A DNA stretch of 64,000 bases, from assembly GCA_027468165.1 (NCBI GenBank), contig GCA_027468165.1_3951.1; one strand, given 5' to 3'. Below the pieces are notes generated by a model that had not been told where the DNA came from, ran no database searches, and was given only the letters and a program-made list of their open reading frames with translations. The stretch comes from a phage. A program made the position numbers and the translations under genes. Below, one piece after another: positions 23,549 through 29,557 of this stretch (position 1 is the stretch's first letter; the number at the start of each line of letters is the position of its first letter).

Positions 23549-24652
23549 TTATTCATAATCTCGTATAACGAGACCAACAGGGAACTGTAAAGAACCCTTA
23601 CGAGTCATCTTCTGGAACTGAACCGTTAAAGGCTTCCCGATAAACTCTTCAGGATGTTCAGCAAGATACTGTTTTTTCTCATGAGTAGTCTTCCATGAGA
23701 CATCTACAAAGACGTTAGGGAGAGTCTCTACAACAAACTTGCCATGACCACGCTTATCAGTCTTTACACCAGTTACTTTAAACTCTTCAGTGTGCATCTT
23801 CTTGTGCTTAATCAAGAAGTATGAACGGTGACAACACTCATAGAAGGAGTATTCAGAAATTGAACGGTACATTGCACCTTCAAACTTAGCTTCAACCCAT
23901 TTATCATGAGCTTCATCAAACTCTTCCCAAGAATTTACACGACGAGATTTAACAGGAACAACTTTACAGCCATCTCTAAAGTCATTCAATGGTGAAGTCT
24001 CAATAATATCTCTACGCTCAGGCCACGTCTTAGTGCTGTCACAGATATCATACCAGTAAAACTTGAGCAGGTGTCTGTCAGGATTGTCTTCATTTTTAAT
24101 CATAGAGACAATATCTTCTAAGTCCCACCCATGAGCATAAATCTCTCCATCAAATTCATCAACATCTTTGTGGAGCCTTAGCATTGCCATAATGTCAGGT
24201 ATTAGTTCAGTAGGGATTTTGTAAACAGTATTCTCACGAGAGTATGCTGTAAATACACTGCCAATACTCAAGTGCCTTGAAATCCTACAACGTACACCAT
24301 CCAGTTTTGGTTGAGCATCAGCAGGGAATTTCAAATACTTTGCATGACTAACCTTTGCAGCATCATGAGCAAGCTGAACACCTACCTTTTCAGTATTCTG
24401 TGCAGACTCTTTTGTGTAAGCATAACCTTTGCGGTCAACTTGCTTTTTATACTTAGCAGAAACTTCAAAGAGAGCTTGCTGTTCAGCGTTACGCTCATTC
24501 TTTTTACCGATGTTTTTAGGTTCTGCTGTATACTCTTCAAACATCATCTTGCCATTTTCTTTACCGTAGGTTGTAATAACTTTGTCACCTACAGCAACGC
24601 ATGACCAGACATTGAAAGAGCCATCTTTATTTTGTTTGTACAGAATTGTCAT
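23549..24652 (-). CDS. ATP-dependent DNA ligase
   Basis: Adenylation motif I KLDG (PKLDGVRCR); size and context fit a T7-type ligase; start chosen at ATG after GAGG RBS. Confidence 0.8.
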   Translation of the reverse strand: MTILYKQNKDGSFNVWSCVAVGDKVITTYGKENGKMMFEEYTAEPKNIGKKNERNAEQQALFEVSAKYKKQVDRKGYAYTKESAQNTEKVGVQLAHDAAKVSHAKYLKFPADAQPKLDGVRCRISRHLSIGSVFTAYSRENTVYKIPTELIPDIMAMLRLHKDVDEFDGEIYAHGWDLEDIVSMIKNEDNPDRHLLKFYWYDICDSTKTWPERRDIIETSPLNDFRDGCKVVPVKSRRVNSWEEFDEAHDKWVEAKFEGAMYRSISEYSFYECCHRSYFLIKHKKMHTEEFKVTGVKTDKRGHGKFVVETLPNVFVDVSWKTTHEKKQYLAEHPEEFIGKPLTVQFQKMTRKGSLQFPVGLVIRDYE

Positions 24653-24845
24653 TTTTAACCTCTGAGTGATACCAAGTGTAACAAGCATTACATGCGTAAA
24701 GCTCTAAGTCATTTTTATCTGGTTTATGGAAACAGTTTGACCCACAACGACACCGGAATAGCTTACCATCAACACGAAGAATGAATGTTTCAAGCTCACC
24801 ATCTTCTGTAAGAACTGCGTTCTTAAATTTATCTTCTACAGTCAT
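24627..24845 (-). CDS. Zinc-ribbon protein (hypothetical)
   Basis: CRCGSNC ... CNAC cysteine pairs. Confidence 0.35.
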   Translation of the reverse strand: MTVEDKFKNAVLTEDGELETFILRVDGKLFRCRCGSNCFHKPDKNDLELYACNACYTWYHSEVKNDNSVQTK

Positions 24846-25319: not shown

Positions 25320-25547
25320 TCAGAGGCCAATACTAATACGTTCACCCTTAAGGACTCCTGTACGGTCTCTTGCAATCTTACCGTCAACAATAAGAATGTG
25401 CGCAGACTTTAAAGATTCACTATTAAAACCTTTTACGAACTTACTAGGCATCACCACAATAAGCATCTCTTGAATCAACTCTGGAGTATAGCAGTTGTTG
25501 TGAAGTTGCTGAATAACGTCTGCAAGTGTCATTTTTGATGTCTCCAA
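25320..25547 (-). CDS. Hypothetical protein
   Basis: 75 aa ORF. Confidence 0.3.
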   Translation of the reverse strand: METSKMTLADVIQQLHNNCYTPELIQEMLIVVMPSKFVKGFNSESLKSAHILIVDGKIARDRTGVLKGERISIGL

Positions 25548-25738
25548 TACTCAATGTCAATAAGTTCTTGTGCAATGCTTTTCAGATTACCTTTCAAGAA
25601 AACCTTCTCAGAACCTGAAAGAGATGAATTATCAATTAGCCTGTTCATCCTCTCAAACAACTTCTGCTTACGATTCTTGATAGTCTCCTTTGAAGCACCT
25701 TTCATCATTGCTGCATGGGTTCTTCCACGGTGGCTCAT
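25529..25738 (-). CDS. Hypothetical basic protein
   Basis: 69 aa ORF. Confidence 0.3.
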   Translation of the reverse strand: MSHRGRTHAAMMKGASKETIKNRKQKLFERMNRLIDNSSLSGSEKVFLKGNLKSIAQELIDIEYWRHQK

Positions 25739-25799
25739 AAGCCCTCCTATATAAGATATTGTATAAGGTACTCTTCCATGAGCACCTTGTCAATACTAA

Positions 25800-26356
25800 T
25801 CAGTGTACTTCAAGCCAATTTTTACCAACTTTACCAGTACCAGTTACAAGCGTTTCCTCCTTAAGCCCTAAATTTCTTGACGCTTGACCATACATCCAGT
25901 CAATTACTGCTTTAACATCCTGCGTCATGTCTTCTGGGCACTCCCAACTATTCTCATCGTGATATGCTAAAAGCAATCTAGCGCCAATAGCTGGTTTTCG
26001 ACCATTCAACTTTGTAAGACCCTCTTCACAAGTTCTTCTACAAGCAAGGTTGATGGCTTCATTCTGAACCTGACTTTCAGAACCCATAAGCAAATAATTC
26101 AATAACTTATGTGGAGATTTACACCACAACCAAGCTCCAGCAACCTTTACAAACCCTCCTTTAGAGATTGCGGCAGTCTTACCAAATACCTCTTCAAGAG
26201 CCTTCTTAGTAGCTTTGAAGTCTGCTTCTAAATTATCCAGCAGCTTCTTAATTTTAGGGAGACGTACAAAGTATGTTTGCTTAGTTAAAGCACCCTCCTC
26301 AGTTGTAGATGCTTTAATCGTCTTAGCAAATTTCTCATCGCCAGCCCCGAACAATA
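25800..26356 (-). CDS. DNA polymerase (family A), exon 2 (C-terminal part)
   Basis: LFGAGDEK (end of motif B), AYHDEN (motif C) and C-terminal ...KNWLEVH match Pol I/T7-type polymerases; frame is open upstream of the reported start. Confidence 0.75.
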
Positions 26357-27157
26357 CATCTGGTCAATACACTCGCAAGGTGTACCAGTTCTCTTATGAA
26401 CTTCTCCGCATTTCTACGGAGTGTCGGACTATATCACGTAGCAGTGATGCTACCGTTGCACTTGGGAATGGTCATTAGCTTACCACCCTACTCTACTCAG
26501 TTCATACGTTAAGTATGCCTTTCGATAGTCTCTGAACGTTTCTCTGTTAGGAATCTCTATAGTTATGTTATTTACTTAGGTAGTCAATTGCTCTTTGCAT
26601 ATTATCAACGCTATCTGCAAGCAACCCCAAAGCTCTGTTGCAATTGTGGCATAACATACCTCTTACCTTTCCGGTTTTATGGTCATGGTCAACAACAAGT
26701 TTAGCCTTGTGTCGTGAACCATTCATGATAAAACCTTCACCGCCACAAATTTGACATTTGTAATCACAGTCACGGAGTAGAGCTTCAACCTCTTCTCTTT
26801 CCAATCCATATGTTCTTAGGTAGTAATTCTTAACTCTACCTTTCTCACCGCAATGTGACGAACAATAAACTTGCCTTGCTGTTCTCGGCATGAACACCTT
26901 CTCACAACTAGGACATTTCTTAGTAAGAACCCTGTGTTCTGCCCTTCTGTCAAACTTTAATACACAACTTCTGCACCGTTTCTGATTGTATTGGTATGGT
27001 TTAAACTCCGTACCACACTCAGTGCATAATCTCTCTTCGTAACCTGCCATTGTCTCTCTCCTTGTTTTAGGAGTCCTAACAGAGACTTCGCTGCTGATTA
27101 CCATATCTTTACAGACTTAGGCTTCCAGCAATTCACAACGTTTTACATGCGCCACTG
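26357..27157 (-). mobile_element. Group I intron (about 801 nt) interrupting the DNA polymerase gene and carrying an HNH endonuclease ORF
   Basis: 5' exon ends in U paired to intron GCGCAU (P1); intron ends in G; R-like GTTCAGAGACTA and S-like GATATAGTCC elements (minus strand); exon lengths sum to 2700 nt in frame. Confidence 0.65.
26568..27050 (-). CDS. HNH homing endonuclease (intron-encoded)
   Basis: Cys-rich zinc-binding region plus VVDHDHKTGKVRGMLCHNCNRALG HNH motif; start at ATG after AAGGAGA RBS. Confidence 0.8.
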   Translation of the reverse strand: MAGYEERLCTECGTEFKPYQYNQKRCRSCVLKFDRRAEHRVLTKKCPSCEKVFMPRTARQVYCSSHCGEKGRVKNYYLRTYGLEREEVEALLRDCDYKCQICGGEGFIMNGSRHKAKLVVDHDHKTGKVRGMLCHNCNRALGLLADSVDNMQRAIDYLSK

Positions 27158-29300
27158 ACGCATAAATGCCATTTTTGGCTTTCTTACGACCTTTACTAAT
27201 TTCTTGAAGAAGACTTGCATCCTGTGTAGCTCGACATGTCAAGATGTCTTCCTCTTTATTAAGACTGAAGTAGATACTATTTAAAGTATGTGCATCAGTT
27301 CCTGAGTACACCACGTACAAGTCATTTTCCGAATCATAATGCAAATACTTGTCAATCTCTGGGTTTAGATACTGGTCAAAATGTTTGCAATAATATCTAC
27401 CATCCTCTTGTTTGACAAACTCAACCTCTTCTTTACCCTCTGTCACTGCTTTGGTGAACTCTTTATCACCCATAAAGTTACACAGCAGTACAAGTTGCGC
27501 GCTATTCATATCTGCTGAAACAATATTAGTTCCTTCTTCACAAGTCCAAACTTCCCTCATAGGTGCTCCATAGACAGCAGCACCAGACGGTACGTTTACA
27601 ATACCATATTGTGTCATACGTCCAGTTGAAGTACCAAATACCATTGCACCAGCACTAAGGCGACCATCTGGACGAATCTGGTTCAACCAACCTTTTTCAT
27701 CATCCTTTGAGTTCTCAATAGTTCTGCGTCGGTGCATCAAAGTATAGTACTTAGCAATCTTCTGTCCAAGCTCACCTTCAATCGTATCATAAGATGATTC
27801 AGTAAGTTTTGGTGAAGTCCTAATCAGACAAGGTTCAAGCAAATCTGTGTACTTCTTCACAGACCAGTTATGCTCAATGTACTGGACACCTTCGTGTTCA
27901 ACATAGCTCAAACCACACCGTTCCACCATCTCATCCCACTTAGGATGCTTTGTAATCATCTTTTTGTTGTCTTTGAAGCGACAAACCTTAACAGGACGAC
28001 CATCAGAGTCTTTCTTATAGTTCCAGTCATCTGGAATCCAACCAACTGATTTCAAGTAGTCTTTAACAACTGCTACCTGAGTCATACGAGAAACTTCGAA
28101 CTCAATTGGTGTATATGGTGCATCAATCAAACCTGTGTAGCGACTTGACTCAAGTTCAAAGTGGTTAACAACATGGCTGTTATAGTACTTCACAGTTTTA
28201 ACTGTTTTTACTGGCTTCCAGTCTTTGCACTTCTTACCAATCTTTGCATTCAACTCATTGCAAATTGCACGAGCATCCTTCATTGCTACAAAACCTTCCT
28301 TGTACTCTTCACCAGTTACGGAGTTGGTTGGTGTATAGCAATTCCGCTTTTCAATGTTAAAAATCTTTGTAGTTGGCTTACCAAATGGCTTGATTTCATA
28401 TGTCTGCATCTCACCGTTACGTACCTGCTGACGATACTTTGTCTTAGGGTACTTGGTAATTCTCTTCAGTCCATCTGCATGGCCGAATGCTTCAACATAC
28501 TCATTCCAAGCTTTTGCAAACTCTTCTCCAGTGACTTTGCCTTTGGTCTTAATAGTTGGAGGAAGATGTGGTTCAACTTCTGAAGCAAGCTCATTAGTCA
28601 ACTTGTCAAGTTCCTTTACATGGAACTCCATAAGCTCTTTATCAGCTTTCCAACCATTGATAGCTTGTTGACTCATCCAGAAAGATGTTTCTTTAGCTCG
28701 CATGTAGGTTTCATAGGTGTCTACGCCACACTTCTTCAGCTTGAGATATTCATTATCCAGTGCACGTTTAGTTTTGGCGTTAATACGGATATCTTCTACA
28801 ACACGAGTGAAGATTTCTGCATTCCACACACCCCAATGTTCAATCTCTGGTTTACGTACACCAACACGAGCACCCCATGCTGCCAAGCCATGAGCACCTT
28901 TATAGCCCTTTGGAGTTGGTCTATCCATCCACTGAACACGAGACTGGATAAGAGAATCCTGAAAGAAATTACTCCACGGCTTACACTTTGGATTATCAAA
29001 GTTCCACAAATCAGGTGCAATGTGATTGAAAACCCACCAGTCATACCCTAAACCATTATGGATGCAAAGTCGTTTTGCCTTTAACGCAAACTCAATACCT
29101 TCACGCAAACCACCCTTAATGTACTTGGTATACTTGTGACCGAGGATAGGCTCATCTGTAAAGACCCATACAGGTGGCTCTTCATCGTCAGATTTATAGT
29201 CTGCGAAAGCCATTACGTGCACTTTAGTGAACTCAAGGAGTAAACCATCAGTTTCTGTATCACCAACTAAATGTAAGTTTTTAAAATCTACGTTTTCCAT
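27158..29300 (-). CDS. DNA polymerase (family A), exon 1 (3'-5' exonuclease and N-terminal polymerase part)
   Basis: N-terminal exo motif VGDTETDG; ends in RKKAKNGIYA (start of motif B) then reads into an intron stop; start at ATG after GAGGGAG RBS. Confidence 0.75.
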
Positions 29301-29557
29301 TTTTACTCCCTCTAAAATCATTAACCACATACATTACTGCAAAAAATTATAAAAAGCAAGTTGACAATGTACTTGACAAGGTGTTAATCTTTGCGAAGTG
29401 GGTTTTTACTTAAAAGGTTACTTAACAGTTTAACTATACAGATACTTTAAAACTCTTAAAAGATTATTTAATAGCTTTTAAAAAGCTTTAAAGTATAACG
29501 TATAGAATACGTTAAGATAAAAGATTAAAACTTAATAGTTACTTAAAAGAGGCTTAC

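What the first reader, a model, noticed from the sequence alone, without database searches (positions are those of the whole stretch)
25800..29300. Family A DNA polymerase gene split by a group I intron that carries an HNH homing endonuclease
The polymerase is in two minus-strand pieces. The upstream piece ends ...RKKAKNGIYA and reads into a stop; the downstream piece starts ...LFGAGDEKFAKT and carries motif C (HDE) and a Pol I/T7-like C-terminal His. Joined, they give one continuous motif B (R..AK..IYALLFGAGDEK). The proposed junction obeys group I rules: the 5' exon ends in U within ATGCGU, which pairs with GCGCAU six nt into the intron (P1 with U-G at the splice site), and the intron ends in G. 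R-like (GTTCAGAGACTA) and S-like (GATATAGTCC) core elements are present on the minus strand at about 26525-26537 and 26426-26435. The exons sum to 2700 nt (899 codons plus stop) in frame. The intron (26357-27157) encodes an HNH endonuclease with its own strong RBS.
Basis: partly seen in the sequence, partly recalled or inferred. Interest (0 to 1): 0.75.

Follow-up and report, generated by a model that had tools for sequence, protein, structure and literature searches.

The report
Self-splicing intron in phage DNA polymerase
The DNA polymerase gene of this Felix O1-like phage is interrupted by an 801-base self-splicing group I intron that carries its own homing endonuclease gene; this is a real but ordinary mobile element, already noted in print for near-identical relatives.

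Summary
On the minus strand, pol exon 1 (29300-27158) and exon 2 (26356-25800) are separated by an 801-nt insert (27157-26357). Joining them gives one 899-aa family A polymerase reading ...RKKAKNGIYA|LLFGAGDEK. Intronless relatives encode exactly this peptide, and it aligns without a gap to T7 gp5 motif B.

The insert has a complete group I (IA2-like) fold: P1 with U·G at the 5' splice site, P10, P3-P9.2, the R/S elements and a terminal G. All 88 proposed pairs are standard. RF00028 scores only 24.8 bits in the window because about 490 nt of ORF sits in the P6a loop. Natural ORF-less copies with 96-100% identical cores score 62-63 bits (threshold 50).

The 160-aa ORF (27050-26568) belongs to the T4 endonuclease VII branch of the His-Me finger enzymes (Pfam PF02945, "DHHRN" family), not Pfam HNH. 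It is 50% identical to the pol-intron endonuclease of T7-like Yersinia phage Berlin.

The window is a Felixounavirus, 97% identical to phage JH2. A 2018 paper already calls the JH2, EC6 and FSL SP-010 proteins "intron-encoded". Splicing and homing are inferred, not tested. Interest is low.

The parts
27158..29300 (-). DNA polymerase exon 1 (start ATG 29300; an in-frame ATG also lies at 29330). It ends ...GGC AUU UAU GCG U.
   Evidence: ORF list. Pfam DNA_pol_A. JH2 annotates the equivalent 2184-nt CDS. Exon sum is 2700 nt.
27158..27163 (-). 5' exon strand of P1 (AUGCGU). The last U (27158) is the 5' splice-site U.
   Evidence: Sequence. Six of six standard pairs, U·G at the splice site, invariant in 9 variants.
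26357..27157 (-). Group I intron, 801 nt, IA2-like, with no P2.
   Evidence: RF00028 partial hit. ORF-less homologues pass the Rfam threshold. Structure counts. MFE z = -3.8 for the ORF-deleted form.
27147..27157 (-). Internal guide sequence. Nt 1-5 (CAGUG) form P10 with the 3' exon UAUUG. Nt 6-11 (GCGCAU) form P1.
27117..27119 (-). UAA that stops the exon-1 reading frame 13 codons into the intron.
27074..27140 (-). 5' half of the ribozyme core: P3 5' strand (27140-27134), P4, P5/P5a with a GUAA loop, P6, and the P6a 5' strand UCUCUGUUAGGA (27085-27074).
   Evidence: RF00028 model positions 60-139 match here..
27058..27063 (-). Shine-Dalgarno AAGGAG of the intron ORF, in the P6a loop, 7 nt before the ATG.
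   Evidence: Sequence.
26568..27050 (-). Intron-encoded homing endonuclease gene: 160 aa plus stop, Endo VII-motif (DHHRN) His-Me finger enzyme with N-terminal CxxC zinc-ribbon-like repeats.
   Evidence: Pfam PF02945, 71 bits against a cut-off of 23.6. PHROG endonuclease VII, 1e-41. PDB Hpy99I and T4 endo VII, with CxxC / DHDH / R / CxxC-N aligned. 50% identity to the Berlin pol-intron ORF.
26357..26552 (-). 3' half of the ribozyme: P6a 3' strand (26552-26541), R element / P7 5' strand (26537-26525), P7.1, P7.2, P3 3' strand (26460-26454), P8, S element / P7 3' strand (26435-26426), P9 with a GAAA loop, P9.1, P9.2, and the terminal G at 26357.
   Evidence: This half is 97-99% identical to ORF-less introns that pass Rfam.
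25800..26356 (-). DNA polymerase exon 2 (starts UA UUG UUC GGG...). It carries the rest of motif B, motif C (HDE) and the C-terminal His. The stop codon is 25802-25800.

Best explanation
An 801-nt mobile group I intron (IA2-like: P7.1 and P7.2 present, no P2) interrupts the family A DNA polymerase gene of a Felix O1-like myophage. It sits inside motif B (the O-helix), after the first base of the Leu codon equivalent to T7 gp5 F528 / E. coli Pol I L764.

Shown from sequence and comparison:
- the boundaries;
- the full set of conserved helices;
- in-frame restoration of a polymerase identical in this region to intronless relatives;
- an intact Endo VII-type endonuclease ORF, with its own Shine-Dalgarno, looped out of the P6a helix.

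Inferred from what is established for group I introns and for the homologous T7-like phage pol introns:
- The pre-mRNA folds. An exogenous guanosine attacks after U27158, which is held by the U·G pair of P1. P10 aligns the 3' exon, and the terminal G (26357) is released as the exons are ligated.
- Ribosomes that enter unspliced RNA stop at UAA 27119-27117.
- In mixed infections the endonuclease cuts or nicks the intronless pol allele (…TATGCACTGCTGTTC…) near the insertion site.
- Repair from the intron-bearing genome copies in the intron plus the flanking synonymous changes (…TATGCGT|TATTGTTC…).
For: - The window is a Felixounavirus: 97-98% identical to Seyj1-1 and JH2.
- The join gives a single 899-aa ORF. 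T7 gp5 aligns across the junction.
- Five intronless alleles encode the same peptide with no indel.
- RF00028: 24.8 bits on the 5' core of the window; 62.9 and 62.1 bits for ORF-less copies at the same site. Those cores are 96-100% identical to the window's.
- 88 of 88 pairs are standard in the window and 99.9% over 9 variants. Two pairs changed on both sides (P6a U:A to C:G; P8 C:G to U:A) and one changed on one side (P3 G·U to G:C). Slid controls pair at only 28-47%.
- The MFE fold of the ORF-deleted intron recovers P3, P4, P5, P6, P6a, P7.1, P7.2, P8, P9 and P9.1, with z = -3.8.
- ORF family: PF02945 at 6e-20; the catalytic residues align to T4 endo VII and Hpy99I; 50% identical over 116 aa (E = 8e-41) to the ORF inside the annotated, joined pol intron of Yersinia phage Berlin.
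- Population pattern expected of a homing element: about 96 of 259 related records carry the intron and 41 carry the ORF. There are two ORF-less forms, one decayed ORF (VpaE1) and many intronless alleles. The ribozyme is far more conserved (96-100%) than the flanking exons (73-87%).
- Literature: PMC6083498 lists the JH2, EC6 and FSL SP-010 Endo VII-motif proteins as intron-encoded. PMC3428280 cites self-splicing of the phiI/W31 pol introns, with the ORF in P6a.
Against: - There is no RNA evidence: splicing is inferred.
- The window's own intron does not reach the Rfam gathering score. This is explained by the ORF insertion but remains a failed formal threshold.
- Covariation is thin because the nine variants are 93% identical on average; only 2 pairs changed on both sides, and 160 of 500 shuffles reach that count.
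- The structure was derived partly from these same sequences.
- Endonuclease activity, its cut site, and whether it nicks or makes a double-strand break are unknown.
Confidence: 0.93

Rival explanations
1. Split polymerase: the insert is not removed from the RNA, and the enzyme works as two separately translated polypeptides (N-terminal 727 aa with a 13-aa tail, plus a C-terminal 184 aa). This is how most GenBank records of relatives annotate it.
For: Relatives are annotated as two 'DNA polymerase' CDSs plus 'endonuclease VII'. A TTG at 26354 could formally start the second piece.
Against: - The break falls in the middle of motif B (the O-helix).
- The TTG has no Shine-Dalgarno and is itself the conserved Leu codon of LLFGAG.
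- A complete, conserved ribozyme with correct splice-site rules occupies the gap.
- ORF-less copies of 267-311 nt sit at the same position, where no protein-coding reason for the insert exists.
- Intronless alleles are colinear.
Confidence: 0.03
2. The intron splices, but the ORF is no longer an active homing enzyme. It would be a decaying or domesticated passenger, so the element is now inherited only vertically.
For: ORF loss and decay occur in this family: 311-nt and 268-nt ORF-less forms, and a frameshifted ORF in VpaE1. No cleavage data exist.
Against: - The window's ORF is full length, with all DHHRN catalytic residues and both CxxC pairs, and a good Shine-Dalgarno.
- It is 98% identical to the JH2 ORF over 468 nt.
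- Ribozyme cores are 96-100% identical across pol alleles that differ by 13-27% in their exons, which argues for recent lateral spread.
Confidence: 0.12
3. The insert is an intein or a free-standing endonuclease gene that landed in pol, with no RNA splicing element.
For: Phage polymerases also host inteins, and free-standing HNH genes are common next to this pol gene in relatives.
Against: - The exon-1 frame hits a stop 13 codons into the insert, and the ORF is in a different register with its own start.
- Ribozyme evidence as above.
Confidence: 0.01

Closest known systems
The same intron in other Felixounaviruses (Escherichia phage JH2, EC6, Salmonella phage FSL SP-010), whose Endo VII-motif proteins are listed as 'intron-encoded' in Fang et al. 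2018, Mob DNA (PMC6083498)
   Same: The element, site, boundaries and ORF are all the same. JH2 is 98% identical over the intron and 97% over the whole pol region.
   Different: Nothing of substance. The paper gives one sentence and a tree label. I found no description there of the host gene, structure or boundaries, and no experiment. GenBank records still annotate two pol CDSs.
[quoted passage not shown]
   Same: - The host gene is a family A polymerase.
- In Berlin the site is also in motif B.
- IA2-type architecture with P7.1 and P7.2.
- The ORF sits in the P6/P6a loop.
- The ORF is 50% identical over 116 aa.
- The P9.1 hairpin GUUCAUAAGAGAAC is identical.
   Different: - The insertion site is 11 nt further 3': T7 codon 528 position 1, against codon 524 position 2 in Berlin.
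- The ribozyme is only about 50% identical.
- The host phage is a myovirus of the Ounavirinae.
- PMC3428280 places the phiI/W31 site at E. coli position 881. I could not reconcile this with Berlin, because the 2004 paper was not available.
SPO1/SP82/Bastille/Pf-WMP3 DNA polymerase introns encoding the HNH nicking enzymes I-HmuI, I-HmuII, I-BasI and I-PfoP3I
   Same: A mobile group I intron with a His-Me finger endonuclease in a conserved part of a phage family A polymerase (PMC3428280).
   Different: - Different site (E. coli position 674, against about 764 here).
- Those endonucleases are of the classical HNH family, not the Endo VII / DHHRN branch.
- No sequence similarity was detected here.
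F-CphI of cyanophage S-PM2 (founding DHHRN-family homing endonuclease) and T4 endonuclease VII / Hpy99I
   Same: The catalytic motif is the same: CxxC, DHDH, R, CxxC-N. It sits at the C-terminus, as in the 'endonuclease clade' (PMC6083498).
   Different: F-CphI is free-standing and works with an ORF-less psbA intron (collaborative homing). Here the ORF is inside the intron. T4 endo VII is a resolvase and Hpy99I is a restriction enzyme.
ORF-less group I intron of Erwinia phage MIF8 (Schitoviridae), RF00028 94.4 bits
   Same: It is the closest ribozyme found outside the Felixounaviruses: 81.5% over 65 nt of P3-P5 and 62% overall (163 of 261 aligned positions). It has a short P6a hairpin like the 268-nt Felixounavirus form.
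   Different: It lies in a different host gene region (after an RNAP2-like gene), has no ORF, and has a P2.

Membership tests
Group I intron (Rfam RF00028) | The 5' exon ends in U, which is paired with G of the internal guide sequence (P1 U·G). | tested here: met
   AUGCGU (27163-27158) pairs with GCGCAU (27152-27147). U27158·G27152 is invariant in 9 variants.
Group I intron (Rfam RF00028) | The intron ends in G (omega G), and P10 can align the 3' exon. | tested here: met
   G26357. P10 is UAUUG (3' exon) with CAGUG (intron nt 1-5), 5 pairs.
Group I intron (Rfam RF00028) | A conserved catalytic core: P3-P8 with the P3/P7 pseudoknot and the R and S elements. | tested here: met
   All helices are present and 88 of 88 pairs are standard. 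GUUCAGAGACUA and GAUAUAGUCC match the RF00028 consensus columns in the aligned homologue.
Group I intron (Rfam RF00028) | The covariance model scores at or above the gathering threshold (50 bits). | tested here: inconclusive
   The window reaches 24.8 bits (partial, E = 8e-4) and 14.5 bits, because about 490 nt of ORF sits in the P6a loop. Natural ORF-less copies with 96-100% identical cores score 62.9 and 62.1 bits. The ORF-deleted window sequence itself could not be submitted to cmscan.
Group I intron (Rfam RF00028) | Excision restores an intact, conserved host gene. | tested here: met
   One 899-aa ORF, colinear with intronless alleles and with T7 gp5.
Group I intron (Rfam RF00028) | Guanosine-dependent self-splicing. 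| not testable with these tools
   This needs in vitro transcription with GTP, or RT-PCR.
Subgroup IA2 | Extra helices P7.1 and P7.2 between P7 and P3'. | tested here: met
   P7.1 is CAUAC/GUAUG and P7.2 is GGGUGGU/ACCAUUCCC. Both are fully paired in 9 variants and recovered by the MFE fold. The subgroup assignment is by architecture only.
Endo VII-motif (DHHRN) homing endonucleases / Pfam Endonuclease_7 | Profile match above the curated cut-off. | tested here: met
   PF02945 scores 71.4 bits against a cut-off of 23.6. PHROG 307 'endonuclease VII', 1e-41.
Endo VII-motif (DHHRN) homing endonucleases / Pfam Endonuclease_7 | The catalytic and zinc residues: CxxC ... D-H-D-H ... R ... CxxC-N. | tested here: met
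   CQIC, DHDH, R in KVRG and CHNCN align to T4 endo VII C23/C26, D40-H43, R54 and C58/C61/N62 (residue roles from PMC6083498).
Endo VII-motif (DHHRN) homing endonucleases / Pfam Endonuclease_7 | Site-specific cleavage of the intronless allele, followed by homing. | not testable with these tools
   Only indirect support is available: presence/absence polymorphism, and ribozyme cores far more conserved than the exons.
Classical HNH family (Pfam PF01844 and relatives) | Profile match to an HNH model. | tested here: not met
No HNH-family Pfam hit even at E <= 10.

The most novel reading that the evidence does not exclude
The Felixounavirus population preserves a natural series of the intron/endonuclease life cycle, in which the ribozyme and the endonuclease gene have separate ancestries.

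- A compact 268-nt ORF-less intron, with a short P6a hairpin CCUCUUAAGAGG and closest to an ORF-less intron in a Schitoviridae phage, was invaded in its P6a loop by an Endo VII-type gene cassette. The cassette brings its own 7-bp inverted repeat (GUUAGGA/UCCUAAC), which lengthens P6a.
- That gene family also serves T7-like pol introns 11 nt away in the same motif B, and terminase-associated ORFs in rV5-like phages.
- The cassette was later lost next to a CCTAA direct repeat (the 311-nt form), or decayed (VpaE1).
- The ribozyme core kept spreading across pol alleles that differ by 13-27% in their exons.
Probability: 0.5. Interest if true: 0.4.

Novelty: already known. Interest (0 to 1): 0.22.

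Why it matters
The main value is correct annotation. Most of the roughly 96 public Felix O1-like genomes that carry this element list two 'DNA polymerase' fragments plus an 'endonuclease VII' instead of one spliced essential gene.

Felixounaviruses are widely used for Salmonella and E. coli typing, biocontrol and therapy. An active homing element in the polymerase gene matters for recombination between cocktail phages and for marker exclusion.

The coexistence of ORF-containing, ORF-less, decayed-ORF and intronless alleles in easily grown coliphages would also make a convenient experimental system for studying the homing cycle. It is not a new kind of biology.

Tried and rejected
- Rfam at gathering threshold on the whole window found nothing. 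An E-value scan of the whole window found only the one partial RF00028 hit and no second intron. The failure is explained by the ORF, not by the absence of a ribozyme.
- Collaborative homing with the free-standing HNH gene found just 3' of pol in Tf, ekra and BPS15S6 was considered. That protein is unrelated to the intron ORF, is absent from the window, and is not mutually exclusive with the intron ORF, since GE_vB_BS has both. The idea was dropped for this window.
- The intein and two-polypeptide readings are rejected; see the rival explanations.
- A dedicated promoter or terminator for the ORF inside the intron was sought. The consensus scan found none inside the intron, and region-wide counts were at or below the shuffled expectation.
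- Bonocora & Shub 2004 could not be retrieved by DOI or PMC id. The phiI/W31 insertion site is therefore taken second-hand from PMC3428280 and may not match what I read in Berlin.
- Literature searches for an explicit description of a Felix O1-like pol intron found three things: the Felix O1 paper, whose abstract states that introns were absent and which found no insertion in pol (PMC3185647; Felix O1 is intronless); an unspecific 'two introns' remark for SPJ41 (PMC9951933); and the one-sentence statement in PMC6083498.
- The large protein and metagenome searches were not used, because the answer did not depend on them.
Full report
**What the window is.** The 3.5-kb region matches 259 phage records. 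The best matches are Felixounaviruses: Salmonella phage vB Seyj1-1 at 97.8% and Escherichia phage JH2 at 97.0%. The window is therefore a Felix O1-like myophage genome segment.

**Checking the observation.** On the minus strand, one ORF runs 29330/29300 to 27117 and ends ...RKKAKNGIYASVAHVKRCELLEA*. A second runs 26354 to 25800 and begins (L)FGAGDEKFAKT. Both match Pfam DNA_pol_A.
- Joining 29300-27158 to 26356-25800 gives 2143 + 557 = 2700 nt. That is 899 codons plus one terminal stop, and the join reads ...GRKKAKNGIYA|LLFGAGDEKFAKT....
- The spliced C-terminal half aligns to T7 DNA polymerase straight across the junction: GRKKAKNGIYALLFGAGDEK against TRDNAKTFIYGFLYGAGDEK. It continues through HDE to the C-terminal His.
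- Five intronless relatives (ekra, pEC-M719-6WT.1, LF82P5, UAB_Phi87, Moogle) encode KNGIYALLFGAGDE with no indel at this point (alignment).
- The bases on either side of each splice site differ, so the junction cannot slide.

**Is it a group I intron?** At gathering threshold Rfam finds nothing in the window. With E-value reporting, RF00028 matches 27041-27130 (model positions 60-139, i.e. P4-P6) at 24.8 bits, E = 8e-4. This is the only such hit in the 64 kb. The low score has a simple cause: about 490 nt of ORF lies in the P6a loop.

Relatives carry the same intron at the same site without the ORF. Shigella phage Tf (311 nt) scores 62.9 bits and Salmonella phage BPS15S6 (268 nt) scores 62.1 bits, both full length and above the 50-bit threshold. 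Their ribozyme cores are 96-100% identical to the window's. ORF-containing relatives (JH2, JLBYU32) fail the threshold just as the window does.

**Structure.** I mapped a complete structure onto the window:
- P1: AUGCGU/GCGCAU, with U·G at the splice site.
- P10: UAUUG/CAGUG.
- P3: CGUUGUG/UGCAACG.
- P4: UGCUGG/UCAGCA.
- P5/P5a, capped by a GUAA loop.
- P6.
- P6a: a 12-bp helix UCUCUGUUAGGA/UCCUAACAGAGA, whose loop holds the ORF.
- P7: GACUAU/AUAGUC.
- P7.1 and P7.2.
- P8: GUAGCA/UGCUAC.
- P9, with a GAAA loop.
- P9.1 and P9.2.
- The terminal G.

All 88 pairs are standard in the window. Across nine variants 99.9% of cells pair, against 28-47% when the partners are slid. Two pairs change on both sides (P6a base U:A to C:G; P8 C:G to U:A) and one on one side (P3 G·U to G:C). 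The remaining substitutions fall outside the paired positions. Covariation is thin because the variants are very similar. The family-level evidence is the Rfam score of the ORF-less copies. An unconstrained MFE fold of the ORF-deleted intron recovers P3, P4, P5, P6, P6a, P7.1, P7.2, P8, P9 and P9.1, with z = -3.8. The presence of P7.1 and P7.2 and the absence of P2 give an IA2-like architecture.

**The ORF.** The likely start is ATG 27050, 7 nt after AAGGAG (27063-27058), giving 160 aa. JH2 annotates the same 483-nt gene.
- It matches Pfam Endonuclease_7 (71 bits, cut-off 23.6) and matches no HNH-family model even at E <= 10. PHROGs calls it endonuclease VII.
- Against solved structures it hits Hpy99I (1.4e-5) and T4 endonuclease VII (5e-3). 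CxxC, DHDH, R and CxxC-N are all aligned.
- This is the 'DHHRN' family of Fang et al. 2018 (PMC6083498), a branch of the His-Me finger (HNH in the broad sense) superfamily.

**Relatives of the element.** The ORF is 50% identical over 116 aa (E = 8e-41) to the endonuclease inside the annotated, joined pol intron of the T7-like Yersinia phage Berlin.
- I located Berlin's junction at ...AAG ACG UU|...G|U AUC UAC. This restores RDNAKTFIYGFLYG and gives a 704-aa product.
- It lies 11 nt 5' of the Felixounavirus site, in the same motif B.
- The two ribozymes share architecture and an identical P9.1 hairpin, but are only about 50% identical. The window's ribozyme is closer (62%) to an ORF-less intron in Erwinia phage MIF8, which scores 94 bits with RF00028.
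- Related ORFs also lie at the terminase gene of rV5-like phages.

**Population picture.** About 96 of the 259 related records carry the intron. These numbers come from BLAST coverage classes, not from a curated census.
- 41 records carry the ORF. The ORFs fall into two lineages that are only 74% (nt) / 82% (aa) identical.
- About 11 records have a 310-311-nt form in which the ORF is deleted next to a CCTAA direct repeat and the long P6a is kept.
- About 44 records have a 267-268-nt form with a short P6a hairpin, CCUCUUAAGAGG.
- VpaE1 has a 780-nt intron whose ORF is broken into two annotated CDSs.
- All nine intron-bearing alleles read TATGCGT|TATTGTT. All five intronless ones read TATGCACT(G/A)(C/T)TGTT. 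These are synonymous differences at -2, -1, +2 and +3, and the first two are needed for P1.
- Ribozyme cores are 96-100% identical between phages whose flanking exons are only 73-87% identical.

All of this is what a homing intron with cycles of gain, ORF loss and intron loss would produce. None of it proves current activity.

**Mechanism (inferred).** The steps below follow established group I chemistry and the reported self-splicing of the homologous phiI/W31 introns (cited in PMC3428280).
- Guanosine attacks after U27158.
- The exons are ligated with release of the intron, which ends in G26357.
- Unspliced message terminates translation at UAA 27119-27117.
- The endonuclease is translated from its own Shine-Dalgarno in the P6a loop and targets intronless pol alleles in co-infecting phages.

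**Known or new.** The Felix O1 genome paper's abstract states that introns were absent, and it found no insertion in pol (PMC3185647). Felix O1 is indeed an intronless allele.

PMC6083498 lists the Endo VII-motif proteins of JH2, EC6 and FSL SP-010 as 'intron-encoded'. These three phages carry this same element, at 97% and about 88% identity to the window over the pol region. The element is thus already recognised in print, and its kind (a mobile group I intron with a His-Me endonuclease in a phage family A polymerase) has been known since SPO1 and phiI/W31.

What I did not find described is the structure, the exact site (about E. coli Pol I codon 764, distinct from the 674, 676 and 881 sites listed in PMC3428280), the four allelic states, or any experiment. 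GenBank records still annotate split polymerases.

**Verdict.** The element is ordinary and essentially known, so interest is low. It has modest value for annotation and as a possible experimental system for intron and endonuclease turnover.

Noticed in passing
Relatives: L002 2826-3136 (Tf), L005 1501-1768 (BPS15S6), L009 301-1080 (VpaE1), L003 (ekra); equivalent to window 26357-27157: The pol intron exists in four allelic states among about 259 Felix O1-like records. There are 41 with the ORF (two ORF lineages, only 74% nt identical), a 311-nt ORF-deletion form, a 268-nt form with a short P6a hairpin, and about 160 intronless. VpaE1 has a frameshifted, decaying ORF.
   Followed up: partly
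window 26357-27157 versus flanking exons; L002, L005, L006, L010, L011: Ribozyme cores are 96-100% identical between phages whose adjacent 300 nt of pol exon are only 73-87% identical. The ORF diverges about as much as the exons do (74% to JLBYU32). This suggests recent lateral spread of the ribozyme, or a separate history for the ORF.
   Followed up: partly
window 27158-27163 and 26350-26356; L003, L013-L016: Intron-bearing alleles always read TATGCGT|TATTGTT. Intronless alleles read TATGCACTG/A C/TTGTT. These are four synonymous differences hugging the insertion site. They are consistent with P1 requirements and with co-conversion or target immunity.
   Followed up: partly
L002 3680-4216, L003 3372-3923, L005 2329-2862 (immediately 3' of pol); absent at window about 25500-25800: Many Felixounaviruses carry a free-standing HNH endonuclease gene overlapping or abutting the 3' end of pol. 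It is unrelated to the intron ORF and is absent from this window. It is not mutually exclusive with the intron ORF: GE_vB_BS has both.
   Followed up: partly
L004 2107-2786 (Yersinia phage Berlin): The T7-like Berlin pol intron sits 11 nt upstream of the Felixounavirus site in the same motif B. It carries a 50%-identical Endo VII-type ORF. PMC3428280 gives E. coli position 881 for the phiI/W31 introns, which does not match what I read in Berlin (about position 760). I could not resolve this.
   Followed up: partly
L007 2455-2702 (Erwinia phage MIF8, Schitoviridae): There is an unannotated ORF-less group I intron (RF00028, 94.4 bits) between an RNAP2-like gene and a hypothetical gene. It is the closest ribozyme relative found outside the Felixounaviruses.
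   Followed up: no
L003 5031-5689 (Escherichia phage ekra); window 23549-24688: The DNA ligase gene is annotated as two overlapping CDSs in ekra. In the window it is one intact 379-aa ORF. This may be a frameshift or another interruption in ekra.
   Followed up: no
window 1-64000: No tRNA genes were found anywhere in the 64-kb window (ARAGORN), although Felix O1 is reported to carry 22 tRNAs. The tRNA cluster must lie outside this window.
   Followed up: no
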